From Porphyridium purpureum (taxonomy: Eukaryota): a DNA stretch of 20,000 bases. How positions within the stretch are numbered: position 1 is the first letter of the stretch; the number at the start of each line of letters is the position of its first letter. The DNA is taken from positions 983,436 to 1,003,435 of the forward strand of contig VRMN01000005.1 in NCBI GenBank assembly GCA_008690995.1, read 5' to 3'. The notes beneath the pieces were generated by a model that did no database searches, had not been told where the DNA came from, and worked only from the letters and a program-made list of their open reading frames with translations. The translations under genes were made by a program, and so were the position numbers. Shown here one piece after another: positions 1 to 19,198 of this stretch.

Positions 1-62
1 CCTGCTTCCCTCGGACACGCGACTTCGGCTCCTCGGGGCGAAAGACAACAATGCACAAACCA

Positions 63-109
63 GAGGTACAGGGTAAAAAACCACGCGGGCGAAAAAGCCC
101 CTGTACCTC
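63..109. other. Branched inverted repeat (three-way junction hairpin)
   Basis: GAGGTACAG (63-71) pairs with CTGTACCTC (101-109) and encloses GGT-AAAAA-ACC and GGGC-GAAAAA-GCCC hairpins. Confidence 0.6.
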
Positions 110-127
110 AAACAATTCCGAGACGCC

Positions 128-138
128 GGGTTACTCTG
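128..138 (-). other. Conserved 3'-terminal motif of copy A (CAGAGTAACCC)
   Basis: Plus strand GGGTTACTCTG, identical at 13896-13906 and 15168-15178, each just downstream of an ORF2 stop. Confidence 0.9.
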
Positions 139-192
139 GTTACGATTTTACTGTCGGATCCTTAACCTAAAGATAATCGCAAATCTAATGCA

Positions 193-3100
193 TTACCACT
201 GTCCCGGAGCAGTGGCCAATGTCGAGAGACATGGTGTGGGCGCCAGGGAGCGGAGGCCCGAAGAGAGCCATTGCAGTCCCGCCACGGGGATGGCGGGTGC
301 CGAATGCCGCAGAAGCACGGCCTCGGCTGCCGACCGGAAGACGGCCAAGGAAAGGGCCCGATGGAGAATCATCGAGGCTTGGCCGCGCCGCAGCTGCTTG
401 GCCATCTGGAATGACCCCGCGAGCGAGGCCAGGAAAGGTCGGGCATCGTCGCCCAGGCGCCCAAAGATGTCCAGCACCAGCGGGCAAAACGAAGTCGGAG
501 CCACCGCCGCAGAGTGAGCGGTGGCGCTGACTGCCGGCGGGCCCGGACGAGCCGACACGAGCGAAGTGTAGGCCGACAGCTTGGCCGCAGTCTTGATGCG
601 AATGGCGGAGCCGGGCGTGCGCCGCGCACCTGCCTTGTCCGGCAGGACGACCGAGACGTCGACGCCGGTCGTGCCAATCAGTACGTCGTACGGCCGCCGA
701 GCCGTGCTGGTGTCGCACACCGCGGGCTCGCGCACGGTCACCAGACCCGCCGCGTGGGCAAAGTCCCGGAGCGCTTCTGCCACGCGTTCGTGGCGCCCGT
801 AGCGCGAGGGCCCGAACACACAAGCGAGCGCGTGCCGGCCCAGAGCGTCCAGGCGCTCGCCACAAATGGCACCGGTCGTGGCCGAAATGGCCGGGCACCG
901 AGTCTGCGAAGCAAACTGGGCCAAGCGCGTCGGGAGCCCGAGCATGTGGCGCACCGCTGCTTGCCACACGTGCGGCCGCATCCGAGTCGCGTGACCTGCC
1001 AGAGGTGTAGCGCTCGGCATGCTCAGCCAAGCCAGCGCAAACGGAGCGGAAATGCCGTGCCTGCGGTGGAACTCCCACGTCGTGGTGCCTTGGTCAGAGA
1101 GCCAGTCTGTCTGCATTTTGCGGAAAAAGCGACGGCAACTCTGCGTCTGGGACGACAGGAGTGTTCCGGGAGGCGCATCGTCAGCGGCGACCGGCGCTGG
1201 GAGACAAGCCAGAGCCGCCTGGTCGCTGTGGAACCGAGCATCCCAGCGCACCAAAGTGGGTGGCACCACATCATCGGGTACCTGGTCCAAGGCACGCGCG
1301 GCTGCACGGCTGCCTGCCGCGAACGCGAACGGAGCAACGTCGGTGAGCGCGGTCAGGCCGAGGCCCCCCATTGACAAGGGCAAGCGCCACTCGGGTCGGA
1401 CGTCGGTGCCGTCGAGGCAGTCCGCCGGCGCAGTCCCGACTGTGCGTGCGACGCAGTGCCGCCAGCCTTCGTCAAAGGAAGCGAGCTCCGCACGGATCAC
1501 ATCGGCCGGCATGGTGCGCGTCAGGTGCGCGAGGCGGCGCGGGCCCACGCTGCCGCGGAGGAGGTGAAACGCCTCTTCGGAGCACGGCAACTCGGACACG
1601 GTGCGAGCCAGGTCGAGGACCTTGCGAGAGAGACGCGCGATGGGCGCCAGTGCACGGCCTGCACCGGTCGCGTCCAGGGGCACACCGAGAAGCTCCGCCT
1701 CGGACCACGAAGTGACGAGCAAGTCTTGCAGGCCGTCCGGCACATCGCTGCGCGTCATCGTGCCCGTCAAGATAAACTCGGTCTTTGCGCGATTGATCGC
1801 CAGGCCATGGGCCTGCGCGTCGTGCTCGAAGGCCAGAAGGAATGCAGCCAAGTGCGCTGGCGTGCCGACGACACAGCCGTCGTCCAAGTACCATACTTGG
1901 TGCACCTGCGGCGCCGAGAACTGGGCCAAGACGTTTTGCAGGACCAACGAAAACAAGAGCGGGCCAAGCGGGTCCCCTTGCTGCACGCCCCGAGCGCTGT
2001 ACAGCATTTGGGTCCCGAGCCGAAGAGGAGAAGGTGTTGAGTAAGTTGACCGCACCAGCGGCCACAACTCGGGAAAGCGCGCGTGCACCAAGCGAAGCAG
2101 CGTGTGGCGACTGACCGTGTTGAAAGCGTTCGCCAGGTCAATTTTCAGGGCCGCTACGGGCTCGGACTGCGTTGGCTCGAGCACGGCCATGCGAGTACCC
2201 ATGATGGCGGCCTCCAGGCCCGACTTGCGGCCTACGCCGAACTGCAGCGGAAGCAGGCTGTCCACGGCAGCTTGGCCGAGGCAGCGGAGCGCAAGCTTGC
2301 CGAGCGCGCGACGAAGCACCTCACCCACCGCGATGGGTCGCACGCCGCCATCCTTCTTGCGCAAAGGAATAAGGCGGGCGTGGTTCCAGAGCGCTCCGGC
2401 CTGGCCCTCGAAGCCACGACGAACGAGCGCCTGCGACACTCGCAGCAGAGCCACTTGGACCTTGGAGCCGGCCACCTCGGTCTGAAGCGCTTGATGCAGC
2501 AGACTTGCCGACCAGCGGGACGGACCGCTCCCGCTGGTGTGGGGAATGGCGAGGATGAGCTGACGAATGTCGTCGCCCTCCCAAGGAACGTCGGCTGCGG
2601 ATGTGGAGTCCTGACCAGGCCCGTGCGCGTCTTGGCGCTGTGAGCTGGTGTCGGCGGCTGACGGATGCAGCGCGCGCAGCTTGGCAAGCACGTCATCAGT
2701 GACCTGATGAATGCCGCTGGACTCGAGAAGACGCGCGGCAGCCCCGATGTGGTGCGCGCGCATGTGCTTCTGAACCTGCTTTGCGAGCAGGTCTGGAGTC
2801 AGCGTACCCGTTGGCAAAGCAGCGTCTACCGGGACGGCCGAAACAAGCTCAGTGATGCTGTCCGCGCGCCACTTGTGGAGTCGGTCCACCAAGAAGGCCG
2901 CTCGTGCGCGGGACGGCTGTCGCCCGGGCGGCAGGCACAGAACCAATGTCGGGAACGTCCACAGCCGGCTCAGAGCGCGCACTTGCTCCAGTTCCGACGG
3001 CGCCCGCGCCAAGTCCTCCAGCATGGCTGCGAGCTCGAGCGCCACCGTGGCACTGAGCCGCTGCGGCACCCGCTTCCATGTTCTGACCTGCATTGCCAAA

Positions 3101-4164
3101 ACCGCATCGACAAAACGGACGAGTGTATGGATGGAGGCGGCACCGAAAAACTCCGAGGGAGAGTTGCGGAGTTGCGCAAACACGTCGTCGAGCCCAGTCA
3201 GGTCATCTGCTGCGCGGTTGCGCCGGACAGCCAGCGTCTGGGCATGGGTGAGGCCCGAGCCACAAAGCACTGGGTCCAGGCATCGCGAGATGGCATGCGG
3301 GTGGTTCAGCGAGTTGACCTCGCAAATCTTGCCGCACGCTCGCTGGCCAACGCCCAGCGTGCGCAGAACCGCGGGCGGGACGGCGCGGACCTGCGCTGCA
3401 GAGTGGCGCGAGAAGTGGCGCACCTGCGAGGACCGAAGGTCGAGGCGAGTGTCACAGACTGGGCACTTGGGCTTCGCGGTCGTACATGGTCCGCACTGAC
3501 ATGCCGAGTCAGCCTGGGTTCGTGGCACCGCCAGCCCGCATTTGTTTCTGCGCAGTTCCAGCGCGCCCCACACGTCCGCCGGTGGCATGATCGTGGGATG
3601 CTCGCGCCCCCAGTGGCGGCCGACGTGGGCCATGGAGCTGCTCGCAAACGGGCAACGCGGCTCCGGGCACGGATATTGCGGTGTCCGGGGCCGTGCTAGG
3701 CCGCCGCGACTCTGCGGCCGCTGTCCGTGGTCATCTGATGGCTGGCCTGCTCGCTCACGCTGGGGCAGCCAGTCATCCCCAGAGTCGGAGGTCGAGTAGG
3801 AGCTGTCGGTGGGCGACTCTGTATCGCCCAGGATCGGTGCACGGGAAAGCGTCGGACGCCGTCGCCGGAGTCCCGGCGCCATGATGGTTTCATTGCCCGT
3901 GCTCGGAGCGGGCCGACTTGGCGCGTCATTGGACGCGGAGGATGTCCGTTCGGCGCCAGTCTCGCGCACAGAAGTCAGACTGCCCCGTTGTCGGAGTGAG
4001 ACTGCGGCATGCTCGGTGCGTACACCGACGTCCCCGCCGGCATCTGGAGTGTCCCAGGCCGCCCAGTCAGAGTCCGACTCGGACCCTGCCCGACCGGCTG
4101 CTTGCCGGTTCGGGGCATCCCCGAGAGTGGGTACAAACGTATCCTTACTCATCATGGTATTCAT
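193..4164 (-). CDS. ORF2 polyprotein: C2H2 Zn fingers, reverse transcriptase, CCHC knuckle, restriction-like endonuclease
   Basis: Zn fingers CPEPRC..RHWGREH and CPVC..RHFSRH. RT motifs LIPLRKKDGGVRPIAVGE, KIDLANAFN, GVQQGDPLGPLLF, WYLDDG, LPLSMGGLGL. Knuckle CPAIS..CGERLDALGRHALAC. RLE RHERV..RRPYD..VDVSVV..K..Y..FCPLVLDIFG. ATG at 4164 chosen (alternatives 4155, 4152) by analogy with copy C; the ORF-track start at 4419 lies inside ORF1. Confidence 0.93.
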   Translation of the reverse strand: MNTMMSKDTFVPTLGDAPNRQAAGRAGSESDSDWAAWDTPDAGGDVGVRTEHAAVSLRQRGSLTSVRETGAERTSSASNDAPSRPAPSTGNETIMAPGLRRRRPTLSRAPILGDTESPTDSSYSTSDSGDDWLPQRERAGQPSDDHGQRPQSRGGLARPRTPQYPCPEPRCPFASSSMAHVGRHWGREHPTIMPPADVWGALELRRNKCGLAVPRTQADSACQCGPCTTAKPKCPVCDTRLDLRSSQVRHFSRHSAAQVRAVPPAVLRTLGVGQRACGKICEVNSLNHPHAISRCLDPVLCGSGLTHAQTLAVRRNRAADDLTGLDDVFAQLRNSPSEFFGAASIHTLVRFVDAVLAMQVRTWKRVPQRLSATVALELAAMLEDLARAPSELEQVRALSRLWTFPTLVLCLPPGRQPSRARAAFLVDRLHKWRADSITELVSAVPVDAALPTGTLTPDLLAKQVQKHMRAHHIGAAARLLESSGIHQVTDDVLAKLRALHPSAADTSSQRQDAHGPGQDSTSAADVPWEGDDIRQLILAIPHTSGSGPSRWSASLLHQALQTEVAGSKVQVALLRVSQALVRRGFEGQAGALWNHARLIPLRKKDGGVRPIAVGEVLRRALGKLALRCLGQAAVDSLLPLQFGVGRKSGLEAAIMGTRMAVLEPTQSEPVAALKIDLANAFNTVSRHTLLRLVHARFPELWPLVRSTYSTPSPLRLGTQMLYSARGVQQGDPLGPLLFSLVLQNVLAQFSAPQVHQVWYLDDGCVVGTPAHLAAFLLAFEHDAQAHGLAINRAKTEFILTGTMTRSDVPDGLQDLLVTSWSEAELLGVPLDATGAGRALAPIARLSRKVLDLARTVSELPCSEEAFHLLRGSVGPRRLAHLTRTMPADVIRAELASFDEGWRHCVARTVGTAPADCLDGTDVRPEWRLPLSMGGLGLTALTDVAPFAFAAGSRAAARALDQVPDDVVPPTLVRWDARFHSDQAALACLPAPVAADDAPPGTLLSSQTQSCRRFFRKMQTDWLSDQGTTTWEFHRRHGISAPFALAWLSMPSATPLAGHATRMRPHVWQAAVRHMLGLPTRLAQFASQTRCPAISATTGAICGERLDALGRHALACVFGPSRYGRHERVAEALRDFAHAAGLVTVREPAVCDTSTARRPYDVLIGTTGVDVSVVLPDKAGARRTPGSAIRIKTAAKLSAYTSLVSARPGPPAVSATAHSAAVAPTSFCPLVLDIFGRLGDDARPFLASLAGSFQMAKQLRRGQASMILHRALSLAVFRSAAEAVLLRHSAPAIPVAGLQWLSSGLRSLAPTPCLSTLATAPGQW

Positions 4165-4179
4165 GAGCCCCGGAGGGCT
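4145..4179 (-). promoter_or_regulatory. ORF1/ORF2 junction signal of copy A: AGCCC-UCCG-GGGCU hairpin plus overlapping start and stop
   Basis: Minus strand AGCCCTCCGGGGCTCATGAATACCATGATGAGTAA; near-identical motif in copy C. Confidence 0.65.
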
Positions 4180-6268
4180 GTGCAGATGACGGCGACTGGC
4201 TCGTGCGCGCTGGCGCCGTGGCCTGGATGAATGCGCCCCAAATGGCGTCATCCACACGGGGGCAGCCCGCACTGACCCCCTCGCACCGACTGCGGTGCAT
4301 GCTGAGGGCCTTGCTGGACGTGCCCAGCTTGAACACGCGACCGCACGGGTACGCCCCGATGCCCGCCTGCGCCAGGCGCGCGCGATCAAGAAATGCGCCC
4401 GCAGCCGCGTGGGCGTCATTCATGTGCGCAACAAGTGCCTCGGTGGTGGCGTGCACGGTGTGGCTGCTCGTGCCTGCTGCACAATCCGCAGCGGGACAGC
4501 GAAGAGCCTGGTCTGTGCGTGTCGGGTCACCAACAAACGCGTCAGGAGCATCCGAGTGTGCTGCTCCAGGCAAGCTGGCCAAGCTCCCTGCCGGTGCGGT
4601 GCCGCTGTAGTCGGCCACCAGCCGCGCGTCTGGATGCGGCGGAGCTTCGGCTGCAAGCGCGGCCTGCGGGGCGTCGACGTCGGGCCCGACCTGCCCGTCT
4701 GGTCCAGGTGGTGTCTGCTGCTGCGAATCCGTACCCGCCGCTGGCTGCACGAAAAGCGCGCGAGACGCCCGGGGTGTCCCGTCACGGAGAGCCCCCGAAG
4801 GTCGCTTCGGGTTGTGCTCCGGGGAGCTTTTCTCTGGTGCACCGTGCTTTGCTGCCGGTGAGCGCTCTGGCGTGCGCACCACTGCGCAAGGTCCTGCGAC
4901 GAACTGTGAGGCCGGTCCCGGAGGACTGTCAGGACAGAGCGGCATAGACGAGTCCGAGCAGAATGCGACGGAGCTGGTCGAGCTCTCCTCGTCGGAGTGA
5001 CCCGACGTGGTCGCCGCTGGGCTTTCATTGTCACCCATATCCACCGGCAGTCCGCATGCCTCACGGTCGGTCATAGTACTCGCGGTGCCTGGTGATACCG
5101 GCGGTGGTTCAGCCACACTCGCCCCAGGCTGAAGGGGCACGTGTGTTTCTGGCACCAACTCGGCTGGACGTGCGGCGCTACCCGACGTGGTGGCGCGAAC
5201 CTTTGCAGCTGGTGGCCCAGGCGTCGTGCGCTCCAGGGTCTTGCGCAGGCGGTGGAGAAGTCCCAGCACAGCCTGCTTGCTCTTGAAAGAGCGGGCGTCC
5301 AGCGCACCCACGCGGTCCGTGTGCGTATGGGCGTCACGTACGAGAGCCGTGCGGGCCTTCTCCGACAGACTCTGGCCCCAGCGGGCCACGTCTACGCCAA
5401 GGCGCTGCATAAGCGCGGCCGTGCGGGTTGTCCCGTTCCAGAACGGGATGGTGTTCACATGTACTGCCCTCACTCTCGGCAGCATGTCCACCAGCACCTC
5501 GGCGTACCCGACCGGCACCAGCACCAGGAAGGATGGAGACGGCGCGCCCGGCAACGACAGGACCTCCACTGGAAGTTTGCCCTCCACCTGCCGGCGCGGA
5601 GAGCTCGAAGCCACCAGCGCCCGGATGCCTTTGCGCACGGAGCGCGGCTCTGCCGAGGTGTGGCAGCTTGTCAGGACAATCCACTCGAACGACTGCATCC
5701 CCAGTGCAGTCTGGGTCCATCCAGCGCCGTCACGGCTGCCAGACGCAGCCTTGAGGTTGCTGGCCCGCGGGGTTTGTGCAAGCGCTGCTACAGGTGCCCG
5801 GCCTGTGAGTGTGCGGCCCATGTGCCCATCACCCTGGCCGGTCGCAGGGACTGGCCCCGCTTGAGCGACTCGTGCCGCCCACGACAATGAGCCCGATGGC
5901 ACTGAGACGGAGGGAAGCGCTGCGGGGATGCCGCCAGCCGCGCGTGCCACACTGCCGATCTCCACTGCAGCGGCATCGGTGCACCCAAGAAATGGCGGCG
6001 CCACAGTCTTCGCGTCGTGCGGGCGCGCGGGGCCCCACGAACGCATCAGCTCGTCTGCTCGAGCGCGGGCAAGACCCAGGATCCCTTGCACCATGAAGTC
6101 GTCGCCGGACGCCCGGGCCAGCGACCTCACCTCCGCGTCGGCCGCCTCCAAGTCACGGAGCAGCGCCTTGACGCGCACCAAAACCGCCACCGTCGGATCG
6201 GCGTCCGCGACCACCTCGATCGCCACGCCGGTGTTCCGACCCAAACCATCGCCTGCTGGGTCCCCCAT
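4145..6268 (-). CDS. ORF1 protein of retrotransposon A (coiled-coil-like N terminus, low-complexity linker, C-terminal Zn-finger module)
   Basis: Frame is open from 6364 to the stop at 4145; first ATG at 6268 (track start 6358 is TTG). C-terminal LRCPAADC..HMNDAH..LDRARLAQAGIGAYPCG matches LDKDALAEAGLAADPCG in copy C, and both contain GAHE at the end. Confidence 0.8.
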   Translation of the reverse strand: MGDPAGDGLGRNTGVAIEVVADADPTVAVLVRVKALLRDLEAADAEVRSLARASGDDFMVQGILGLARARADELMRSWGPARPHDAKTVAPPFLGCTDAAAVEIGSVARAAGGIPAALPSVSVPSGSLSWAARVAQAGPVPATGQGDGHMGRTLTGRAPVAALAQTPRASNLKAASGSRDGAGWTQTALGMQSFEWIVLTSCHTSAEPRSVRKGIRALVASSSPRRQVEGKLPVEVLSLPGAPSPSFLVLVPVGYAEVLVDMLPRVRAVHVNTIPFWNGTTRTAALMQRLGVDVARWGQSLSEKARTALVRDAHTHTDRVGALDARSFKSKQAVLGLLHRLRKTLERTTPGPPAAKVRATTSGSAARPAELVPETHVPLQPGASVAEPPPVSPGTASTMTDREACGLPVDMGDNESPAATTSGHSDEESSTSSVAFCSDSSMPLCPDSPPGPASQFVAGPCAVVRTPERSPAAKHGAPEKSSPEHNPKRPSGALRDGTPRASRALFVQPAAGTDSQQQTPPGPDGQVGPDVDAPQAALAAEAPPHPDARLVADYSGTAPAGSLASLPGAAHSDAPDAFVGDPTRTDQALRCPAADCAAGTSSHTVHATTEALVAHMNDAHAAAGAFLDRARLAQAGIGAYPCGRVFKLGTSSKALSMHRSRCEGVSAGCPRVDDAIWGAFIQATAPARTSQSPSSAQPSGAHEYHDE

Positions 6269-6520
6269 CGCTGCAAACACCGCGCCGCCGAGTCGCGCGT
6301 CCACCCCTGCATGGATCGCGGCGGCTCGCGCGCCCGGCTCCGATTCGCCTAATAGCAATTCGCGTTAGGGTTTCCTTTTCCTAGTGTAGCTCATTAATGG
6401 AAAGTGCATTGCCCAGTGTTTTCACAGGCAAATGTGGAGCCAGAGAAGAGCTACCCGCAGACATTTTCGCCTTTCTCAAACGCCTCCTACTTCGAGCCAG
6501 TCCTTCGATTTAATGGTTTT

Positions 6521-6868
6521 GAGGGGTAGTCACTATCTGCTATATTAGTGGTTTTCAAATGCTACGGGGTGGTCACCATCTGCTACAAAAATTGCATTGA
6601 AATGCTTATGCAAAACTCAGTACAAATTTAGCTTTTTTCAGAAGGAAATTTCGTGGTAAAATCGTCTTGTTTGAGGGGGTAGTCACCAAACGTAAGGGGG
6701 TAGTCACCGTGTGAAAGCGTATGAAAGTATCTCATTTTCATAGAGACGTGTTGTATCTAAATGATTGTTTCCTGAGGGGGTAGTCACCATATGCAAGTGT
6801 ATAAAAATGCTCCAGTTACTTATACACATTCTGTACTTAAATGGCATCAATCTGAGGGGGTGGTCACC
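6521..6868 (+). repeat. Six iterated GGGGTRGTCACY motifs in AT-rich DNA; the last three at exact 80-bp spacing
   Basis: Copies end at 6534, 6577, 6687, 6708, 6788 and 6868. Copies 1 and 2 are both followed by ATCTGCTA. Confidence 0.9.
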
Positions 6869-7348
6869 AAAAGGAAGCGTGTCTTTAGTTAAACAGGCGG
6901 CAACTACATGAGCGCATGGATTTTACCAGTGAAATCTAGCTTTCCAAAGTCAAATCATACAGCGAGGCCACTTTGCCACGAAAACTCGCCATGGCAAGCG
7001 CATATGCGGAACCCCCATGTTTACGATTTTTCCTGGTCAAAATGAGCGTTTTGGTACAGAAGCCTCTGGTTTCTATGTGGGGGAATTATTTTAGTAAGAG
7101 TAATTATCGTACTAAAACGATCGCATTTGACGGGTCGATGTTCATTTCAATGTCATCCCTACAGTGTTCGTGGGCAAGCCTTTAGCCGTGGAGTGTGAGC
7201 GAGGGTGGTCGTCGGGGTCGAGGCGGTCGAGGAGTGGTCTAGAGAAGTTTGAGGACGGGGCGGCGGGTTGTGGGCAATGGGCAGCAGCGTACCACAGTGT
7301 TTTTACTCATGAGGCAATCACACATGCAGAGTGGAGCTAGTGTCGGTT

Positions 7349-10300
7349 TTATATTTTCTGAAGGCTCCATTCATTCGCCATGAGCTTTGTCGCTCGCTTG
7401 TACAACTCGAAGCCTTCCCAGCTCACGAGTTCGCACAGCTTGTGTGTGTAGAAGATGGTCAACTCTTCTGCTCCACCAGATCCGAGAGTGCCCATCAAGG
7501 AGAAAGCTTTCCGATACACGGCTTCCATTCTGTGCTTTAAGGCGCTCGGAGCCTTTTCGCATTTCTTTTCGCACACTTCGGTGGGGGCCAGACAACGGAA
7601 ACACATGCCTAAGTTTGGCGCGAGTCTTGGTCTGATGATATTTCCGGCCGACCGTTTGCTGCAGGAGACGTGGGCCGCTGCAGATGACCGTGAGTATCGA
7701 AACCCACAGTATGGGCAGGTGTTGGGAAACCTGTTCGGATTCTGGCATGTGCCAAGACATGTGACACCACTGCACCAGATGCATTTGTACATTGCAGTAT
7801 TCCATGTCGCTCTTGCTTGTCTGATCGTCTGTAATTGCTCGCCCAGCGCGCGCGCTGGTGCAGAGCTAGCCAGTGGCGTCGCCTCGTGCTGCTGCGAGCT
7901 GGCCTGCGCGAGCAAGTGCAAAGTTGGTTGCTCCGGCACGTGCGAAGTGGGCTGCGCCATCACGTGCGAGCTTGGCGCTGCGACCGTGTGCGAGCTTGGC
8001 TGGGCCAGCATGTACGACGTCGGTTGCGCTATCATGCCCGAACTTGGTTCTGCAACCACGTGCGTACTTGGCCGCACCATCTCGTGCAAGCTTGGCTGCG
8101 GCACCGTCACTGGGTTGGCTGTCTGAGTCACCATGGAGCGAGTGGTTAAAAGGTTGAGCACGCTGTGAACTTCGTGAGAGGATAAGTCAAGTGCACTCTC
8201 AACGAAGCGCCGTAGACCGGCTTTACTATGCCAAGGGTCGCGCTCAAAACCTGGAACCTGGCGAATGCTCGGGCTGTCACGCTGGTCCAATGCGTTCTGG
8301 AAATTTCTGTCGAAGAAAAATTCGCAGTGGGCGTGCTCACCGTCGCGACCAACTCTGCCCCATGCTTGGACCACTTGGCTGAGCGAATGTGCTCCGCGCA
8401 TCACGGCGCAGTACAAAACAGATTTGCAATTCAGAGATGAGCTCGCAGCGGATGTGCCAACGATTACCCGCGCTTGCTGCAATGCCTCAGCGTCGAGAGC
8501 TTCACGTGCTGTCAGTTTGTAACATGCATCTGAGTAAGACTTTCTCATTTCGTCAAACCATGTGTCGGCTTCTGCATGAGTAGCACACATTATCAGTGCA
8601 CGCCCACGACGAGCAAGCGCATTTTCCTGGATGGCGGCCGTAATCTGTTGAGTGCAGATTGCGCTCGTGCCAAACTCTGTCACGCTGATGTTCAATGATT
8701 CTCGAAGTGGTCGTGCACGCAAAAAGGAGTCGATGTTCACACCAAACTCTTTGGCAACGAACGCAGCAGCATCTTCACTTATCGTCGCACTGAGAAATAC
8801 AAAGCAGGATTTCGTCAAAAGCGACGCGCTCAGCTTGACGGACATTGACTCGCGGAACGAGTTATGTTCTAGTACGACGTGACTCTCGTCCACGACAACG
8901 AGTGCGATGCGTTCTGCAATGCGTCTAAGAGCTGCACGTTGTGATGCAAGTGCATCCATGCTGGTGACGACGAGGCCGCCATGCGAACGCTCGGTACATG
9001 AGTACAAGTCAACGGCTTCAATCCTTCTACTTCTTGCCTCCTGCAATGCAGCAAACATGGAAACGCGAAGCGGTACCAAAAGCAGAACAAAGGCACCTTG
9101 CAAGCGAACGACTTTCTCCATGCACAAGTATGATGCTGACTTACCACTTCCGCAAGGATACTGTACGCAAACGTTCTTGTCCATCAGAATTTCGTTCAGC
9201 ATTTCAAGCTGCTTCCTTGCTTGCGGGCTGGCGACGGAAGCGCTACCATATACATCACGGAGCAATGTGTCTGGCGTCAAACCCGCCAGTGCGGCCCATT
9301 CTCCGAGCGAACGCTCTCTCGGATGCACGGAGCCCATCCGTGACGAAGCGTGAGTTTCCGCGCCAATCAGTGCAAGCCATGCGTCGCGACATTCCACTGT
9401 GAATGCAAACCAGTCTTCGTCTTTTACTGAAGCCAGGTAGAATGCGGCGTCTGTCGCAAGCGAGTGACCTGCGCCGCGGATCTTGTACTTTTGCGCAGGT
9501 GTGTCTACGGGCTGTATCCCTTGCGGGGCGGCAATTCCTCGGAAAGCGTCAGCGTTGTCTCGTACGCAATGCAAGTAAAGATTGCGCAAGTCCCGTAAGG
9601 TCATGGGCACGGCGCAGAACTGCCCAACAGCACATTCTACTTGTGCAATCCACTCCTCCGGATTAAGTGCTGCACAAGTCGTTCTGCTGGCGCAGGCCCC
9701 AAAGTTTCGAAAGTCAATGCTCTCAGGTACATTTTGCCCCTGATTTTGCTGGCCAAGTATCTCGTCAATATATGCACTCGCAATCCAATGCATGATAAGC
9801 AGCACTTCTGCGACTTCCTCAGTTGGAAGATGCTCAACAGTTTCAGTTGCAAGCGCGCGACCCAATTTCTTCTCAACAACCTCGACAACTCTCACTACAC
9901 GAGTATTTAAAACAGGTCTAAGTGAATTTCCAACACTTCGGCTAGCGAGAACAAAAGTTTCCATACTTGACTTTCGCGGCGGGGCACACGCGGCAGAGAA
10001 CGCAAGTAATGCAAAATTGCTCAGTGCGTTGAAATCGATGTTCTGGCGTCTGGCGCTCGCGAGCAGTTCCGCAGGCTGAGCTGCATGTCGTTCACTGCCA
10101 TCGAGTATAATTTCACCGAGCATTGGCGCCGTTGTATTATGCTGCGACAATACCCGGACCGAAAAGTTATCGCGCGCTCCAAGAACTCGGGCAACCAAAG
10201 CTCGAGCGGCCGCTCTGGAGCCATTGTACAAATTACCAAAGACCTTTGCTTGCACCAGCACTTCCGTCTTTAAGTGCATCCAGGAACCATTGCCCATAGC

Positions 10301-11527
10301 TTTCCATGCCACGTACGTGGATGGCTCTTGCGCGCTTCTGAAGACGGAGTGCATCATGTACAGTACTTGCACACAGGGAACGTCGGAAAGAATCGTGTCG
10401 TTTGAGGTTTGTATTTCCCGGTCTTTCTCTTTCACAATTAGCCTCACAACCCACGCAGCTCTCAAAACCCAGAGCTGCGTGGCTGACAACTCACTTATCG
10501 TTAAGGCACTGCGACTGGTCAAACACGTGCCGGACTGCGATCCAGACATTTCGTCGTGGATACTTGATGGCTCTCCGTTTCGGTCACTCACTTGCTGGAG
10601 CGCGTGCGAGCGCAAAAATTCGCGTGCAGCTGGCCGTGTGTTTCCGGTGGATGTTGTAGGTTGCTCAAGTGCATAGTTCAAAATGCTTTGAAGGGCGCCA
10701 ACCACAGGACGAGTATTGCTTGGCACGTGGGTCTGCTCGTATTTCACAACGACGTCCTCGAGATTCATTTGCAAAAGCCAGTAAGCGTAAAAGGAAAACA
10801 GTCGTGCGATGTTCGGGATGCGCTTTTCCAAAGTCTCGTCTTTGAGGGTCGCCAAAGTTCTATACTTTGATCCATCGCTCCATACCTCTGGGTCATGCAT
10901 GTCAAGCTCCGATGGGTTGCCCTGCTTGCCAGGCACGGGAATTCTCAGCAGATGTGGCGTGGTCTTGAGAGCAAGCCTGATTGCCCGCCTCGCAAATTCA
11001 CACCACTCTCGCGCATAGATGACACTCTCCTCTGCTGGTTCTCGAATGGCATGTGAGTACGCTTCAAGCATGTCTTCATATGTGTCGTAAAATCCCAACG
11101 TCGTCAATGCTGATCCAGTCAGCGTACGCGCCGGATTGTACGGCTGCAACGGCGTGTCCATGATTGCACGGACAGCGGAAGATGATGCCACAGCGTTAGT
11201 TCCAATGACAATCGCGCGAGCGGAGCGGACCGAGCTACAGATGTTTTGTCGAAGTGTGTTCCCTTTGGCCGTCGCGAATGATGCGCAAGGAGCAATGAAA
11301 GGGGAGCGTGACAAATGCCTGGGGTGCATACGAGTCATATGCCTGCGAATGTATGCCCGCGCTTTCTTTTCTTCTCCTGGTGTGACCTTCACAGCAAATA
11401 TGCATTCTGGACAGCACATTCCATCGATGTCCTCGCTCTGTAAGAAACAGTAGCGCTCATGCACGTCGCGCGCGCTCTGACTGGTCAAGACTGAGCCGCA
11501 GCCCTTTCTGCACAAAAAGTGCGGCAT
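7349..11527 (-). CDS. Zn-finger / tyrosine-recombinase-like / RecQ-like SF2 helicase fusion (telomere-linked helicase, Crypton-like)
   Basis: Uninterrupted ORF with first ATG at 11527. Helicase motifs YPCGSGKS, LLVPLR, VVVDESH, FLSAT, VIVGTSA, QAWGRVGRDG. N-terminal CRKGC..HERYC and CPEC..HMTRMH. Middle APPRKSS..EKK..HLPTEEVAEVLLIMHWI..LRDLRNL..AGHSLATDAAFY. Cys-rich C terminus. Confidence 0.9.
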   Translation of the reverse strand: MPHFLCRKGCGSVLTSQSARDVHERYCFLQSEDIDGMCCPECIFAVKVTPGEEKKARAYIRRHMTRMHPRHLSRSPFIAPCASFATAKGNTLRQNICSSVRSARAIVIGTNAVASSSAVRAIMDTPLQPYNPARTLTGSALTTLGFYDTYEDMLEAYSHAIREPAEESVIYAREWCEFARRAIRLALKTTPHLLRIPVPGKQGNPSELDMHDPEVWSDGSKYRTLATLKDETLEKRIPNIARLFSFYAYWLLQMNLEDVVVKYEQTHVPSNTRPVVGALQSILNYALEQPTTSTGNTRPAAREFLRSHALQQVSDRNGEPSSIHDEMSGSQSGTCLTSRSALTISELSATQLWVLRAAWVVRLIVKEKDREIQTSNDTILSDVPCVQVLYMMHSVFRSAQEPSTYVAWKAMGNGSWMHLKTEVLVQAKVFGNLYNGSRAAARALVARVLGARDNFSVRVLSQHNTTAPMLGEIILDGSERHAAQPAELLASARRQNIDFNALSNFALLAFSAACAPPRKSSMETFVLASRSVGNSLRPVLNTRVVRVVEVVEKKLGRALATETVEHLPTEEVAEVLLIMHWIASAYIDEILGQQNQGQNVPESIDFRNFGACASRTTCAALNPEEWIAQVECAVGQFCAVPMTLRDLRNLYLHCVRDNADAFRGIAAPQGIQPVDTPAQKYKIRGAGHSLATDAAFYLASVKDEDWFAFTVECRDAWLALIGAETHASSRMGSVHPRERSLGEWAALAGLTPDTLLRDVYGSASVASPQARKQLEMLNEILMDKNVCVQYPCGSGKSASYLCMEKVVRLQGAFVLLLVPLRVSMFAALQEARSRRIEAVDLYSCTERSHGGLVVTSMDALASQRAALRRIAERIALVVVDESHVVLEHNSFRESMSVKLSASLLTKSCFVFLSATISEDAAAFVAKEFGVNIDSFLRARPLRESLNISVTEFGTSAICTQQITAAIQENALARRGRALIMCATHAEADTWFDEMRKSYSDACYKLTAREALDAEALQQARVIVGTSAASSSLNCKSVLYCAVMRGAHSLSQVVQAWGRVGRDGEHAHCEFFFDRNFQNALDQRDSPSIRQVPGFERDPWHSKAGLRRFVESALDLSSHEVHSVLNLLTTRSMVTQTANPVTVPQPSLHEMVRPSTHVVAEPSSGMIAQPTSYMLAQPSSHTVAAPSSHVMAQPTSHVPEQPTLHLLAQASSQQHEATPLASSAPARALGEQLQTIRQARATWNTAMYKCIWCSGVTCLGTCQNPNRFPNTCPYCGFRYSRSSAAAHVSCSKRSAGNIIRPRLAPNLGMCFRCLAPTEVCEKKCEKAPSALKHRMEAVYRKAFSLMGTLGSGGAEELTIFYTHKLCELVSWEGFELYKRATKLMANEWSLQKI
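7883..8098 (-). repeat. Intragenic 24-bp (8-aa) tandem repeat, about 9 units
   Basis: QPSLHEMV RPSTHVVA EPSSGMIA QPTSYMLA QPSSHTVA APSSHVMA QPTSHVPE QPTLHLLA QASSQQHE. Confidence 0.85.
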
Positions 11528-11995
11528 CCTTTCCAGCCACTTCCGCACAACTTGAGCTCAACCAACTTGGAACGAAAAGCTTGCCGACCTTCACTTTACG
11601 CGCGATCACGCTGTAGGCAAGTTCAAAGCCGGATAGGATGAAAGAGCAGGGGTTACAGATGTTCAGCGCTTCAGTCGCATTTTAGGTACTATTCGAAGAC
11701 TCGCAGAGAAAAGGTGTTGAAGTCAGCACCACGACGCGTTCAATACAAACTGGCATCGCTCGGTGCCTATCGAGTGAGACATCTAGCGCGCGGACATTGC
11801 GCAAGCGTCGATTGGTGTCGGACAACGTGCCGGCAGATCTTCTTTACCGTATGCGCAGCTGTGGCCGTACAAAATACAAATCTGGTTTTGGGTGGGCGGC
11901 GTCAAAGAGGTAACGGCCTGCGTATGGTGTATACGGGCTCGTGCACTCCACAGCGGTCGCTCGAGAAGTTTTGTCGCGCCGATTATTCGTCCGAG

Positions 11996-12062
11996 TGAGC
12001 TTTAGGGGCACACGTTGAGCTCTAGGGGCAAACGTTGAGCTCTAGGGGCAAACGTTGAGCTC
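11996..12062 (+). repeat. 20-bp tandem repeat TGAGCTCTAGGGGCAAACGT, about 3.3 copies
   Basis: Read directly; the first copy has TTTAGGGG and CAC variants. Confidence 0.92.
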
Positions 12063-12194
12063 AAAGTGCCCGTGGCGGGTCGTGCGATCCAAGGACGAAA
12101 GGTGCATGCAATCTTGTAGAAGGCCCCTCCGCGTCATGATCTGCAAGGCGTCTTGTTGTGTTGCTTGGAGGAGGAGTGATCATCAGACCATGCG

Positions 12195-12952
12195 TCAGCA
12201 CAGCGCGTAGGTCGCGCGTAAGCTCGTGATCTGTGCAGAACGCGGCACAAGCGGGAGATGTGGGCTTGCAGTGGAGGCCAGGTGAGAATGGTACGCACGC
12301 ATGGAGTGGTCGGCGCAAAAACAAGCGCATGACAGGGTGGTGATACCGCAAGACCACGGAAGAGGTACTCGCGGTCGCGTGCAAAACTGTGGCCCTGTTG
12401 TAAGACAACGGCGAACGCGATCTGACAAGTGACACTCGCGCGGCGATCAGCACAGCGCGTAGGTCGCGCGTAAGCTCGTGATCTGTGCAGAACGCGGCAC
12501 AAGCGGGAGATGCGGGCTTGCAGTGGAGGCCAGGTGAGAATGGTACGCACGCGTGGAGTGGTCGGCGCAAAAACAAGCGCATGACAGGGTGGTGATACCG
12601 CAAGGCCACGGAAGAGGTACTCGCGGTCGCGTGCAAAACTGTGGCCCTGTTGTAAGACAACGGCGAACGCGATCTGACAAGTGACACTCGCGCGGCGATC
12701 AGCACAGCGCGCATGCCGTGCATAAGCTTGAGATCTGTGCAGAACGCGGCACAGGCGGGAGATGCGGGCTTGCAGTGGAGGCCAGGTGAGAATGGTACGC
12801 ACGCGTGGAGTGGTCGGCGCAAAACAAGCGCATGACAGGGTGGTGATACCGCAAGGCCACGGAAGAGGTACTCGCGGTCGCGTGCAAAACTGTGGCCCTG
12901 TTGTAAGACAACGGCGAACGCGATCTGACAAGTGACCATCGCGCGGCGATCA
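12195..12952. repeat. 252-bp tandem triplication
   Basis: Units start at 12195, 12447 and 12699 (TCAGCACAGCGCG...). The third copy is slightly diverged and lacks one A in the A-run. Confidence 0.96.
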
Positions 12953-13370
12953 AGTGGTGGTGCAATGCGGCGGAACAGGGAGACGCAGGCAGCCAGAACA
13001 ACTTGGCCCGCTGATGCGAGAATAAGTGGAGCGATCTAGGCACAGGTCATTGCACAGCGGTCAAGTGGTGCCGCTGATCCATGGTTCAGAGACACGCTAC
13101 TGCTACTCTAGCCACGGAATCCGGAGACGCACAGGCGCCGTGCAACTGGGCACTTCTTATTCTCATGGGTTAGGCGGTCTGCCTGAAGACAAGAACACGG
13201 TGATCAAGTGGTTCTACAAGGCCGCAGAATAGTGAGGCGCGTGGTCACAGTGCAGTTGCTCGCTTCCCTTTTTAACGGGTTACGCAGACTGCGTACCGAC
13301 AAGATCGCGACAATTGAGTGGTGGCGCAAGGCCGCGGAGCAGGGATGCGTAGGGGAGCTGTACGCTTTGC
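12195..13370 (+). pseudogene. Degenerate Sel1-like repeat (SLR) protein pseudogene; boundaries approximate
   Basis: Plus-strand translations W*YRKATEE, AAIKWWCNAAEQGDAGSQNNLAR*, VQLGTSYSHGLGGLPEDKNTVIKWFYKAAE* and DKIATIEWWRKAAEQG match the Sel1 consensus, with several stops and frameshifts. Confidence 0.82.
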
Positions 13371-13480
13371 ACGCTCATCATACCGTGTTGGTAAACGCAG
13401 TCTGCACAACCAGCTGCGCAGCGGGTTAGCGCGGGTGTGCATACGCGCGAGTGAGACTGAGCGCGGATGATCACGCTGAA

Positions 13481-13895
13481 GCGCGCTGAACACTACTGAA
13501 GTGAACTGAACACTATTGAATCACACTGACCACTACTGAATCGCACTGAACACTCATGAAGTGCACTGAACACTACGCAAGCGCACTGGACACTACTGAA
13601 TCGAACTGAACACTACGCAAGCACACTGGACCCTACTGAATCGAGCTGAACACTACTGAAGCACACTGGACCCTACTGAATCGAGCTGAACACTACTAAA
13701 AACGACTGAACACTACTGAAACGAGCTGAACACTGCTGAAGACGACTGAACACTACGCACGCGCACCGGACACTACGCAAGTGCACTGAACACTACTGAA
13801 TCGAACTGAACACTACTGAAGACGACTGAACATTACTGAGGACGACTGAACACTACGAACGCGCACTGGACACTACGCAAGTGCACTGAACACTA
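13481..13895 (+). repeat. 20-bp minisatellite (NNNNACTGAACACTACTGAA / ..CACTACGCAA), about 20.7 units
   Basis: Strict 20-bp register without indels; ends mid-unit at CACTA, where copy B begins. Confidence 0.96.
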
Positions 13896-15167
13896 GGGTT
13901 ACTCTGAATTGAGTTTATTGTTAAAATTTAACCAATTCAGCGAGGTGATGACTCATCGTGGTCGGAGCTGAACTGGGATCAGCTCACGGGGCTAAGTTGG
14001 AGGGCGCCGGCCTCGTGAGTGGCAGTGTTCTGTTCGGAGGAGCCGAGCAGTCGCGCCACATGGGGGAGCCAGCGCAGCCCGCTCGCCGTGAGGGCCGAGT
14101 GTCCGGCCGGGTACCGCAAAAGAATGCCATGTGCGGCGGCGCGGTACACGGCCAAGGACACGGCCCGCGAGAGGACGGTCAGCGCCCAAGCGGGGCGGGA
14201 CCTGGCGCACGCGGGCAAAGTCACGCGCGAGCCCGGAAAGAAGCGCACGTGCGGGCACATCCACGTTGCTGTACGTGGTGACGATGAAGGCCACCATGTT
14301 GGCGGCGTGGCCCGAGGATCCGACTGGCGACGCAGCGCGGGCGGCAGCAAAGGAGCCGCGCTTGCGGGAACGAGCAGCGGCAACCCCGTCGGGCGCGACC
14401 ACGGCAACGTCGACGACATTGTTGTCGAAGGAAAAGTCGCCGGGTCGTGCGCTCGTTATGCCGGGCACGTCCTCGAGGCGCACCTCGCGGCGGACCGTGT
14501 GTCCCGCTGAGGTCGCAAAGCGGACGAGCACGTCAATGACCGCGGCATGGCGGCCGTACCGGGTCGGCCCCAGTGCGCAGTTTTGTGCATGGTGACCGAG
14601 CGCGTCCAGGAGTGCATCGCACGTGGCCGTTGTCCCGCGGACAATGGCCGGGCAGCGGAGGCCCGCAGAGCTCGCCACGCCAGCTACAGGCAGGCCCAGG
14701 AAGTGGCGCACTGCGGTGAACCAGGTGTCGCGGCCCAGGGCGGGTGACCACGGGATGCCACCGAGCACTGTGCCGGACGGCATGCCCAGCCAAGCCGCTG
14801 CATGCGGCGACGACAGGCTCTGGCGGCGGAAGCGTTCAGACGGCGTGGAGCCAGGCGCCGAGACCCAGTCTTTCTTCAGCAGTGAATAAAAGCGACTGAG
14901 GCCTCGGGCCTGGGAATCCAGCAGGTCTTCGACTTCGGCGTCCGGGACGCCCGGCACCTGTTGCAGCCACGCCTCCTCGAGGTCGTGGAACTGTCGCCAC
15001 CTGGCCAGGTGCGACGGACGAACGCGCGCGGCGGCGGCGGGGGCTCCGGCGGTTGCCGCGACAGAGGCGCCATCGGAGGCACGGCTTCCCGCTGAGCGCG
15101 TAGCACCTCACCTCGTCCAGTGTGCGAGCAGCAGCGCGGCTGCCGGCAAACGAAGCCTGGCAGGCTA
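13894..15167 (-). mobile_element. Retrotransposon copy B, 5'-truncated (about 1.27 kb)
   Basis: 3' end CAGAGTAACCCTA. Homology to ORF2 (FAGSRAAARTLDEV) continues up to the 3' terminus of copy C. Confidence 0.9.
13979..15167 (-). pseudogene. C-terminal ORF2 fragment (post-RT region, CCHC knuckle, RLE) with frameshifts near 15110 and 14185
   Basis: LLDSQARG, AAWLGMPS, CPAIV..CDALLDALGHHAQNC, RYGRH, RPGD..VVDVAVV. The C-terminal LSRAVSLAVYRAAAHGILLR is in a different frame. Confidence 0.85.
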
Positions 15168-15237
15168 GGGTTACTCTGAAATCGTTTTACATTATAAATC
15201 TAAAGGGCCTAAGCTCTGTACCTATGTATCAGCAAAG

Positions 15238-18200: not shown

Positions 18201-19184
18201 TGCGAGTGTCATCGCATGCCCGCTTGCGCCCGCTCGCTGTGCAGACTGCACGCGACCGCCGTGCCCTTCAAATGCCACAGCACAACGCGCAGGATCCCGG
18301 CATCGACTGCGCTGGTGGCGCACGGACAGCGCAGGCAGCAAGCACATCGCGCCGCACGCCCGGCGTGCCAGCCCAACCGCTCTGAGCGCGTCCGGTGGCA
18401 CTGCGGCAAGTGTTTCAGCCGAGTGATTACTGCCCGCCAAGTGCCGCAGCAGTCCAGCTGGCTCGGCCCACGAGGCCTCACAGCCTGCCACGGGGCACGC
18501 GTTCCACAGCGCTCGGCACGCTGGACACTGGCACGCGTCTTGGGGCTGCACGTCTCGCACCGCCCATCCGCACGCGTTTCGCCTCAAGTGCAGGCTGGAC
18601 AGAAGCTCGGCACTCGCTGGCTCCGTCGGATGTGCCGCACGCCAGTGCTTGCCCAGCTGAGCCGCACTCTGGTAGCGTCGCATGCACTCGGCGGCCGGAC
18701 ATGCGTGCGGCGCTTCGAGCTGCGCCATCCGAGCCACGCTGCGTCGCGAAATGTCAAAGCCCGCCGGACGGAGCATGCGAGCAGAGCTGCGAACAGATGC
18801 GCTGTGGCCAAGCACGGCATCCCTGACCGCTATGTGTGCGGCAGGCCCCGCACGCTGGCGCGGTCGTCGTGCGGACCGACGTGTGGCGCGACCGTCTGCC
18901 GAGTCTGCGACACTGTGCGGAGATGCCACTGGCGCGTGCGTGGCTGCCAGCACCCTAGAGCTGGAGATGTGCGCATCCACCACCGCACTCTCTCGCGCAG
19001 GACCAGCACGCTCACGCAGTTCCACTGGTCCACCCGGCCGACTTTGTAGCCGGCCTCGCCCAGACGCTCGACGAGCGCGGGGGCGTGCGGGAGCCCATTC
19101 CGCGTCGCTTTCCTCACTTGAGGCTAGAAGACTTGCGCCGCGCGGACCGGGCCCTTCCCACGAGTCAGAAAGTGTCTCACTCAT
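15238..19184 (-). pseudogene. ORF2 of copy C (Zn fingers, RT, RLE) disrupted by frameshifts (real decay or assembly indels)
   Basis: N-terminal part 18090-19184 (CPAAEC..HWRAAH, CPVAGC..HLAGSNH) and RT part 15238-18171 (GVQQGDPLGPLLF, WYLDDG) are in different frames, with the shift near 18170-18200. The RLE motif RQPGDLRVDSTWVDVAVV (~15640-15715) is out of frame with the 977-aa ORF. Confidence 0.85.
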
Positions 19185-19198
19185 GAGCCCCGAAGGGC
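19177..19198 (-). promoter_or_regulatory. ORF1/ORF2 junction signal of copy C: GCCC-UUCG-GGGC hairpin plus AUGAGUGA start/stop overlap
   Basis: Minus strand GCCCTTCGGGGCTCATGAGTGA. Confidence 0.65.

What the first reader, a model, noticed from the sequence alone, without database searches (positions are those of the whole stretch)
128..15180. Three diverged retrotransposon families share a poly(A)-less, telomerase-template-like 3' end (CAGAG-TAACCC-TA)
Seen: copies A, B and C have largely dissimilar 3' UTRs and diverged proteins, yet all terminate in plus-strand GGGTTACTCTG (128-138, 13896-13906, 15168-15178). B and C extend this to CTAGGGTTACTCTGAA. A TAAA(A) lies 6-7 nt upstream on the sense strand in all three, and no poly(A) tail or target-site duplication is visible. 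Known: TAACCCTA is a permutation of the (CCCTAA)n telomeric strand, as in telomerase RNA templates, and the CRE-like elements MoTeR (Magnaporthe) and Cnl1 (Cryptococcus) are telomere-associated. Inference: the RNA 3' end anneals to a chromosome-end or broken-end 3'-OH and primes reverse transcription. This would be a multi-family end-extending or end-healing retroelement system, possibly undescribed in this host.
Basis: partly seen in the sequence, partly recalled or inferred. Interest (0 to 1): 0.88.

Follow-up and report, generated by a model that had tools for sequence, protein, structure and literature searches.

The report
Telomere-stacking retrotransposons in a red alga
Three related retrotransposon families in a Porphyridium red alga all end at the same 11-base repeat, which is likely this alga's telomere repeat, so they likely stack at chromosome ends as fungal MoTeR elements do and point to a testable telomere sequence.

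Summary
The motif is real: GGGTTACTCTG occurs three times, each at the 3' end of an R2-group (CRE-like) retrotransposon. Homologs are Porphyridium purpureum proteins. (1) At other copies the motif continues into short, variable tracts of an 11-nt unit GGGTTACTCTA mixed with GGGTTA. It is therefore a junction with a candidate telomere repeat, not only a TTAGGG permutation. (2) Some family-C RNA is polyadenylated right after CAGAGUAA (5 reads), so TAAA is likely a poly(A) signal. All 11 junctions scored show 1-4 nt in-phase microhomology. Accession order puts 6 of 9 named models on the five largest contigs at contig ends; one cluster looks internal. Two multicopy RecQ helicase families sit beside them. 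Best reading (0.55): MoTeR-like elements that target a host 11-nt telomere repeat. Rival (0.3): the elements make the repeat themselves, possibly without telomerase. Long terminal arrays and TERT were not testable. My paper searches found no telomere repeat for this alga.

The parts
1..128 (.). High-copy repeat of unknown identity into which copy A's 3' end is joined; elsewhere it continues with other letters after 128 (1-nt seed G)
   Evidence: depth at 56: 59,018 in X1 against 58.7 on A; loose end behind 128; 11-bp inverted repeat 63-73/99-109
128..138 (+). Junction tract GGGTTACTCT(G) at the 3' end of copy A
   Evidence: another A copy has a different degenerate tract (X7 15341->139)
128..6347 (-). 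Copy A, apparently near full length, family A (5 protein members); 5' boundary about 6347
   Evidence: X1 contig 137-6341 with 0 differences and loose end before 6348
193..4419 (-). A ORF2: N-terminal zinc-finger motifs, RT, CCHC + RH + PD..D..K restriction-like endonuclease
   Evidence: model pLDDT 88.7, best folds R2 proteins
4145..6364 (-). A ORF1 (first ATG about 6268), overlapping ORF2 in another frame; no known domain
6348..7348 (.). AT-richer spacer with six GGGG(G)T(A/G)GTCAC boxes (6523-6866); left edge of the multicopy helicase block
7349..11557 (-). Multicopy RecQ-type DEAD/Helicase_C gene with two N-terminal zinc-finger-like motifs; resembles telomere-linked helicases (public models start at 11338)
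11996..12952 (.). Tandem repeats: 3.3 x 20 bp and 3 x 252 bp
13476..13895 (.). 20-bp satellite, 21 copies; its last CTA is the 3-nt seed of B's junction
13893..13917 (+). B 3' junction CTAGGGTTACTCTG with the sense TAAA at 13914-13917
   Evidence: joined to other flanks (330, 13341, 19643)
13896..15166 (-). Copy B, 5'-truncated, retains the endonuclease part
   Evidence: full-length B continues differently after 15166
15165..15189 (+). C 3' junction; poly(A) site at 15171 (after sense CAGAGUAA); sense TAAA at 15186-15189
   Evidence: X21, 5 poly(A) reads; variable repeat tracts before 15165/15166
15168..20000 (-). Copy C, runs off the window; frameshifts at 15636 and 18219 are corrected in the runs and are likely assembly errors
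   Evidence: table 4

Best explanation
A, B and C are RT-endonuclease retrotransposons of one Porphyridium lineage whose 3' ends abut short tracts of an 11-nt repeat (GGGTTACTCTA) that is likely the host telomere repeat, and they likely insert at chromosome ends as fungal MoTeR and FoTeR elements do. Shown: the domains, the shared end, the variable tracts at many loci, poly(A) on some C RNA after CAGAGUAA, and head-to-tail nesting. Inferred steps: (1) an end breaks or shortens, and host telomerase adds repeats on a 1-4 nt seed. (2) The element's endonuclease nicks the telomere tract, or uses its free G-strand end. (3) The DNA end ...TTACTCT-3' pairs with AGAGUAA just inside the RNA's poly(A), so reverse transcription starts inside the tail and leaves no poly(T) and no TSD. 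(4) cDNA extends the chromosome with the element's 5' end outermost. (5) Repeated rounds, truncation and recombination build arrays mixed with RecQ helicase blocks and satellites; copy A has been internalised behind such a block. All families keep CAGAGTAA because they must pair with the same target.
For: Variable tracts: loose ends and joints before B, C and A ends hold about 0.5-2.5 units of the 11-mer, often with a GGGTTA unit (table 5c, 6 of 6 rows; table 7 rows at 13893, 15165 and 15166 in X21, X22, X5). A tract also follows a truncated B at 14372 and leads into sequence that is not A, B or C (X7). Seeds: 11 of 11 scored junctions share 1-4 nt in phase with the repeat; two-sided null P(all >=1) = 8e-5, and 0.003 for the 7 read-derived ones. 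In M. oryzae 19 of 24 de novo telomeres formed on 1-4 nt seeds, and stable interstitial tracts held at most two repeats (PMC7367193 passages). Poly(A) after CAGAGUAA lies 17-19 nt from the start of TAAA; UAAA is the C. merolae signal at a mean 17 nt (PMC8831791). Position: CRE models bracket 3 of the 4 boundaries between the five largest contigs within 1, 6 and 3 accession numbers, and 19 of 31 named models lie on contigs under 100 kb. The window's helicase has 6 near-identical members. A second helicase family has 4 accessions, each within 1-4 numbers of a CRE or helicase model. FoTeRs co-occur with such helicases (PMC12857005 section 20). A-D form one clade (SH-aLRT 100, quick tree), and their UTRs are unalignable while the last 8-11 nt are kept.
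Against: No long array of the 11-mer was seen: every displayed tract is 2.5 units or shorter, though contigs and 150-nt reads favour short tracts. The telomere identity is therefore inferred. TERT was not tested. One A+C+C cluster lies about 1,925 models into an estimated 2,600 on the 5.7-Mb contig, so it is internal or mis-joined; the 4|3 boundary had no sampled model. Contig ends are not chromosome ends, and any repeat array breaks an assembly. Five of 11 tracts start in the same phase (P about 0.02), which also fits a fixed RNA end. Read-through reads outnumber poly(A) reads (28 to 5 in X21; 123 in X22, with no poly(A) row among those shown), and 8 X22 molecules begin at 13896. A's 5' boundary has no repeat tract (print). 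Phases were assigned by eye after seeing the data.
Confidence: 0.55

Rival explanations
1. The elements carry the 11-nt repeat as their own RNA tail (...CAGAGUAACCCUAGAG...). Their RT primes on broken or shortened ends through 1-4 nt of pairing and stutters on the tail, making the variable tracts. They would heal and extend chromosome ends themselves, possibly in place of telomerase, as a CRE-clade counterpart of Drosophila HeT-A/TART/TAHRE.
For: All tracts shown are short and sit against an element end or unknown DNA. Five of 11 start in one phase. Tracts are degenerate (6-nt units, missing letters; X8 19493 and X7 15341 rows). Read-through RNA is abundant. No genuine telomerase activity was found in three red algae, and two probes failed in P. 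purpureum (PMC3622300). B and C insert into A and C bodies at many positions. Summed depth of C relative to A differs strongly between runs (depth is no copy number).
Against: Polyadenylated C RNA stops before the CCC and so cannot template the tract. The TRAP and probe tests used other repeat types and could not have detected an 11-mer. A tract caps a truncated B and is followed by non-A/B/C sequence. The proteins keep the endonuclease motif. Telomerase-healed seeds explain the same microhomologies.
Confidence: 0.3
2. The repeat is an ordinary short-repeat 3' tail or minisatellite target. The elements nest in each other and in repeats at non-telomeric clusters, and their position at contig ends only reflects assembly breaks.
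For: One cluster looks internal on the largest contig. Repeat arrays break assemblies wherever they lie. No chromosome end was observed.
Against: The unit has the G-rich telomere form with TTAGGG variants, and every junction shows the G-rich strand leading into the cDNA strand. Two multicopy RecQ helicase families and satellites co-locate, as in fungal subtelomeres. The nearest Atlas clusters of the helicase are long fungal helicases (0.96-0.97).
Confidence: 0.12
3. The shared ends are chance or an assembly artefact.
For: The window has indel errors in B and C (table 4).
Against: 0 of 200 shuffles reach the count. The same ends with other flanks occur in contigs of runs X2, X5, X7 and X8 and in raw RNA reads of X21 and X22.
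Confidence: 0.03

Closest known systems
MoTeR1/MoTeR2 of Magnaporthe (Pyricularia) oryzae
   Same: CRE-related RT-endonuclease; head-to-tail arrays of whole and truncated copies; short interstitial repeat tracts; 1-4 nt seeds; internalised relics; a proposed annealing of telomeric DNA to the RNA 3' end; a possible partner element sharing the 3' end (15211 rows).
   Different: Red algal host; at least four autonomous families (A-D) at 40-50% identity; the repeat is an 11-mer with 6-nt variants; A has two ORFs; terminal position and telomerase are not shown here.
FoTeRs with telomere-linked helicases of Fusarium oxysporum
   Same: 3' ends followed by telomere repeats, no definable TSD, truncated copies common, co-location with RecQ helicases (PMC12857005 sections 19-20).
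   Different: FoTeR 3' tracts are about 3-8 TAACCC copies; here 0.5-2.5 units of an 11-mer. No tract was found at A's 5' boundary. Two helicase families occur here.
Cnl1 of Cryptococcus
   Same: Subtelomeric arrays that hinder assembly of chromosome ends and vary between strains (bioRxiv 10.1101/2021.08.11.455996 passages).
   Different: Several diverged families here; junction repeat differs; no reference sequence was available for a tree.
CRE1/CRE2, SLACS, CZAR of trypanosomatids
   Same: Zinc fingers + RT + CCHC + restriction-like endonuclease; two ORFs in SLACS/CZAR (recalled, not from a call).
   Different: They target spliced-leader genes and make TSDs; no Rfam family reached its gathering score in the window.
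HeT-A/TART/TAHRE of Drosophila
   Same: Several families stacked head to tail in one polarity (working resemblance only).
   Different: Jockey clade, poly(A) at junctions (recalled) and no telomerase; here R2-group proteins and repeat tracts at junctions, with telomerase status unknown.

Membership tests
CRE clade / R2 group non-LTR retrotransposons | Non-LTR RT domain | tested here: met
   RVT_1 E 1e-19 (A) and 3e-17 (C); the 7 best folds are R2 proteins, then LINE-1
CRE clade / R2 group non-LTR retrotransposons | C-terminal CCHC + RH + PD..D..K restriction-like endonuclease | tested here: met
   Patterns found in A (P0011) and B (P0013); not matched in the two other models tried, P0004 and P0016, which look frameshifted there
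CRE clade / R2 group non-LTR retrotransposons | N-terminal zinc fingers | tested here: met
   Three motifs in A ORF2; weak C2H2 hit in C
CRE clade / R2 group non-LTR retrotransposons | RT phylogeny groups with CRE1, SLACS, MoTeR, Cnl1 | tested here: inconclusive
   No reference sequences were available. A-D form one long-branch clade among 108 rows (quick tree). One homolog, P0083, is named SLACS-like by its source.
Trypanosomatid CRE/SLACS | Spliced-leader target and TSD | tested here: not met
   No Rfam family at gathering score; TSD at most 4 nt for A, none for B
MoTeR/FoTeR-type telomeric elements | 3' end followed by the host telomere repeat | tested here: inconclusive
   Repeat tracts are present, but their telomeric identity is inferred
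MoTeR/FoTeR-type telomeric elements | Location at chromosome ends | tested here: inconclusive
   6 of 9 named models on the five largest contigs are at contig ends and 3 look internal; contig ends only
MoTeR/FoTeR-type telomeric elements | 5' end faces the chromosome end and abuts telomere repeats | tested here: inconclusive
   All three copies share one polarity; truncated B copies abut tracts (window), but A's 5' boundary has none
Telomere-linked helicases (TLH) | RecQ helicase core, multicopy near ends | tested here: met
   end positions are estimated from gene density
Telomere-linked helicases (TLH) | Two N-terminal C2H2 motifs of the published patterns | tested here: inconclusive
   One C2HC-type motif and one C2H2 with a 20-residue spacer, where the published pattern allows 11-16
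Telomere-linked helicases (TLH) | TLH domain upstream of the helicase; grouping with fungal TLHs | not tested
   No profile or reference sequence; Atlas neighbours are long fungal helicases without a TLH name
Telomerase-replacing retrotransposons (HeT-A/TART/TAHRE-like) | Loss of TERT; ends built only of elements | not testable with these tools
   No genome held; no TERT query from any tool; one search found no paper

The most novel reading that the evidence does not exclude
Porphyridium has no working telomerase. Four CRE-clade retrotransposon families build and heal its chromosome ends by priming on broken ends and stuttering an 11-nt repeat from their own RNA, a Drosophila-like telomere system evolved from endonuclease-bearing R2-group elements in a red alga.
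Probability: 0.2. Interest if true: 0.92.

Novelty: new variant of a known kind. Interest (0 to 1): 0.7.

Why it matters
Red algal telomeres have resisted standard tests, and P. purpureum gave no signal with two telomere probes (PMC3622300). The junctions give a concrete candidate, (GGGTTACTCTA)n with GGGTTA variants, so one probe, one TRAP primer or one look at long-read ends tests it. If it holds, the fungal arrangement of telomere-targeted CRE elements beside RecQ helicases also exists in a red alga, with at least four families converging on one 8-11 nt end. The poly(A) site next to the pairing sequence offers a simple way for a polyadenylated RNA to leave no poly(A) in DNA. If telomerase is absent, it would be a new route to retrotransposon-built telomeres.

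Tried and rejected
No whole genome was held, so motif mapping to chromosome ends and a TERT search were not possible. Pattern scans gave 4 metagenome and 46 viral loci. None of the 50 had a tblastn hit to the four family proteins, and only 7 had an 18-24 nt match at the motif, so all were treated as chance. A two-unit pattern found 0 in prokaryote genomes and 0 in viral contigs, as expected for a eukaryotic repeat. An RNA-gene target (spliced leader, snRNA, rRNA) was considered: Rfam gave 1 match at E 0.93, below gathering. The idea that TTAGGG is the host repeat was rejected: 2 copies in the window and a failed probe. The first seed null was one-sided and too generous, so one search replaces it. 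The careful tree did not finish; only the quick tree is used, with 3 of 111 rows dropped for short matches. Word-based helicase searches found only its own cluster. A ORF1 had no usable Atlas hit. A guess that the N-terminus of P0006 came from the spacer failed; P0123 shares it, so it is likely C's own 5' part. RNA strand could not be called: X22 first mates are mostly on minus (108.7 vs 13.2), X21 is near even (18 vs 12.2), and the library type is not given. Earlier scan findings: none. Starnes 2012 was not held.
Full report
Observation. The 11-mer GGGTTACTCTG occurs exactly at 128-138, 13896-13906 and 15168-15178. With one mismatch there are 4 matches against 0.17 expected, and 0 of 200 shuffles reach 4. 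Each exact match lies 57-75 nt past the stop of a minus-strand retrotransposon ORF, and the UTRs are no more alike than shuffles. TAAA ends 8, 7 and 7 nt before the motif. The DNA has no poly(A). The TSD test gave 4 nt for A and none for B.

What the elements are. A ORF2 and C carry RVT_1. The best homologs of C are Porphyridium purpureum proteins at 74-100% identity, then three other families at 35-49%, then unrelated hosts at 36% or less. I take the host to be P. purpureum or a very close relative. The four families (A, B, C and D; D is not in the window) are 40-50% identical and form one clade in a quick tree (SH-aLRT 100, long branch; 108 of 111 rows kept). A and B show CCHC, RH and PD..D..K motifs, and A has three N-terminal zinc-finger motifs. 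The model of A's last 920 residues (pLDDT 88.7) matches R2 proteins best. This is CRE-clade architecture, but no CRE reference sequence was available for the tree. A has two overlapping ORFs, confirmed by a 6.2-kb contig with no differences. C's frameshifts at 15636 and 18219 are corrected in the runs and are likely assembly errors.

The junctions. No genome was held, so I laid public runs: 4 DNA-contig runs on the whole window, then 2 raw RNA runs and 2 DNA-contig runs on 13780-15420. That is 7 different runs of the 24 listed. Only part of each table is shown: 24 of 410 loose ends and 20 of 60. In one search the 3' ends of B, C and A are joined to other places: B to 330, 13341 and 19643; C to 18573, 19493 and 19927; A to 15341. 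The letters in between are T, T, TCTAGGGT, TCTAGGGTTAGGGTTAGGTTAC, GTTACT and TACTCTAGTTA (not given for 13341). In one search the loose letters before C's end finish in TCTAGGGTTACT (15165; 8 and 25 reads) or GGTTACTCTAGGGT (15166; 20 and 98 reads). Two X5 contigs end in GGTTACT and CTCTAGGGT, and 6 X21 reads before B's end finish in TTACT. All read as 0.5-2.5 units of GGGTTACTCTA, often with a GGGTTA unit. One X7 contig has TTACTCTAGGGTTA after a B copy cut at 14372, followed by sequence not found in A, B or C. No displayed tract is longer than about 2.5 units; short contigs and 150-nt reads favour short tracts.

Microhomology. I scored 11 junctions whose flank is in the window: 3 in the window and 8 from contigs. 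The 13341 joint had no letters, and the loose-end flanks are unknown. All 11 share 1-4 nt in phase with the repeat (1,3,2,1,4,2,1,1,1,1,2). A null that also allows the aligner's forward extension gives P(all >=1) = 8e-5, or 0.003 for the 7 contig-derived junctions left after dropping the weak 13821 case. Phases were set by eye. Five of 11 start in one phase (P about 0.02).

RNA. Five X21 reads carry a poly(A) at 15171, right after sense CAGAGUAA. The DNA beyond it is not A-rich, so internal priming is unlikely. The site is 17-19 nt from the start of TAAA, and UAAA is the poly(A) signal of Cyanidioschyzon at a mean 17 nt (PMC8831791 passages). Against a simple picture: read-through reads are more common (28 in X21, 123 in X22), no poly(A) row is shown for X22, 8 X22 molecules begin at 13896, and the strand is unknown. 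Reads in both runs leave C at 15211, so another element shares C's last 45 nt.

Position. Public protein accessions rise with contig size (checked), and I assume they run in order along each contig. On the largest contig the offset between locus tag and accession is constant for the two models that show both. CRE models bracket the contig boundaries 5|4, 3|2 and 2|1 within 1, 6 and 3 numbers; 4|3 has no sampled model. So 6 of 9 named models on the five largest contigs are at ends. The other three (A, C, C) lie about 1,925 models into an estimated 2,600 on the 5.7-Mb contig, so they are internal or mis-joined. Of 31 named models, 19 lie on contigs under 100 kb (one placed by accession only). 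Gene density fits end positions on contigs 8, 9, 10 and 13. Two public models join two families on one strand (C then D, B then C). The RecQ helicase at 7349-11557 has 6 near-identical members. A second family at 32% identity has 4 accessions, each 1-4 numbers from a CRE or helicase model. The Atlas neighbours of the helicase are long fungal helicases. Contig ends are not chromosome ends.

Mechanism. The best reading (0.55) is that the 11-mer is the host telomere repeat. Ends are healed on short seeds; the element RNA pairs through AGAGUAA with a telomeric 3' end just inside its poly(A); and cDNA extends the chromosome with the 5' end outermost. This accounts for the missing poly(T), the missing TSD, the single polarity and the convergence of diverged families on the same last bases. 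The pairing, the nick and telomerase are inferred. The main rival (0.3) is that the repeat is the elements' own tail, stuttered by their RT. The short degenerate tracts, the phase bias and the read-through RNA fit it; the poly(A) site before the CCC does not. A non-telomeric cluster model (0.12) and artefact (0.03) fit less well.

What is known. MoTeRs insert in telomeres with 5' ends outermost; stable interstitial tracts have at most two repeats; 19 of 24 de novo telomeres used 1-4 nt seeds; relics occur internally (PMC7367193 passages). Annealing of nicked telomeric DNA to the MoTeR RNA 3' end was proposed earlier (PMC3636483 passage; the original paper was not held). FoTeRs end in TAACCC tracts and co-occur with telomere-linked helicases (PMC12857005 abstract, sections 19-20 and passages). 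Cnl1 forms subtelomeric arrays (bioRxiv 10.1101/2021.08.11.455996 passages). TLHs were reported from fungi and a choanoflagellate (bioRxiv 10.1101/2024.02.27.582403 passages). A survey of telomeric retrotransposons lists no red alga in the passages seen (PMC10088271). For P. purpureum, human-type and Cyanidioschyzon-type probes failed after BAL31, and red algal TRAP signals were false positives (PMC3622300 passages and section 13). A 2020 review calls red algal telomere data mostly missing (PMC7046594 passages).

Novelty. Seven searches showed no paper on these elements or on a P. purpureum telomere repeat. The 19 hits for permutations of the 11-mer were seen as listings only and look unrelated by title. 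One TeloBase supplement had no Porphyridium entry. The TeloBase database, Repbase, subscription papers and bioRxiv supplements could not be seen and may hold the repeat or the families. Verdict: a new variant of a known kind. It works like MoTeR/FoTeR; membership of that clade is unproven. The interest lies in the candidate 11-nt telomere repeat and in the open question of whether telomerase or the elements make it.

Noticed in passing
window 1-128: Very high-depth repeat (summed depth at 56 about 1,000 times that of A in X1) with an 11-bp inverted repeat; identity unknown. The sequence after the tract at 14372 in X7 loosely resembles its 66-80 part.
   Followed up: partly
window 15166-15211: RNA reads in X21 (12) and X22 (9) share C's last 45 nt and then diverge: a further family or a non-autonomous partner like MoTeR2.
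   Followed up: no
window 7349-11557 and protein P0142: [quoted passage not shown]
   Followed up: partly
window 6523-6866: Six GGGG(G)T(A/G)GTCAC boxes, some about 80 bp apart, downstream of the helicase gene; possible protein-binding sites.
   Followed up: no
window 13476-13895: The 20-bp satellite is covered by RNA reads in X22 and is longer or rearranged at other loci; a C end is joined to a satellite-like flank in X5.
   Followed up: partly
window 15168-20000 vs 128-6347: Summed contig depth of C relative to A differs greatly between runs (below 1 in X1, about 30-60 in X7), hinting at strain-level expansion; the tool warns that depth is no copy number.
   Followed up: no
window 6294-6348: Other contigs join at 6294 (X7) and 6348 (X1), so the sequence at A's 5' edge is shared with other contexts; A's true 5' end is uncertain.
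   Followed up: partly
window 7893-8100: 24-bp repeats inside the helicase gene encode a P/Q/S-rich repeat in its C-terminal part.
   Followed up: no
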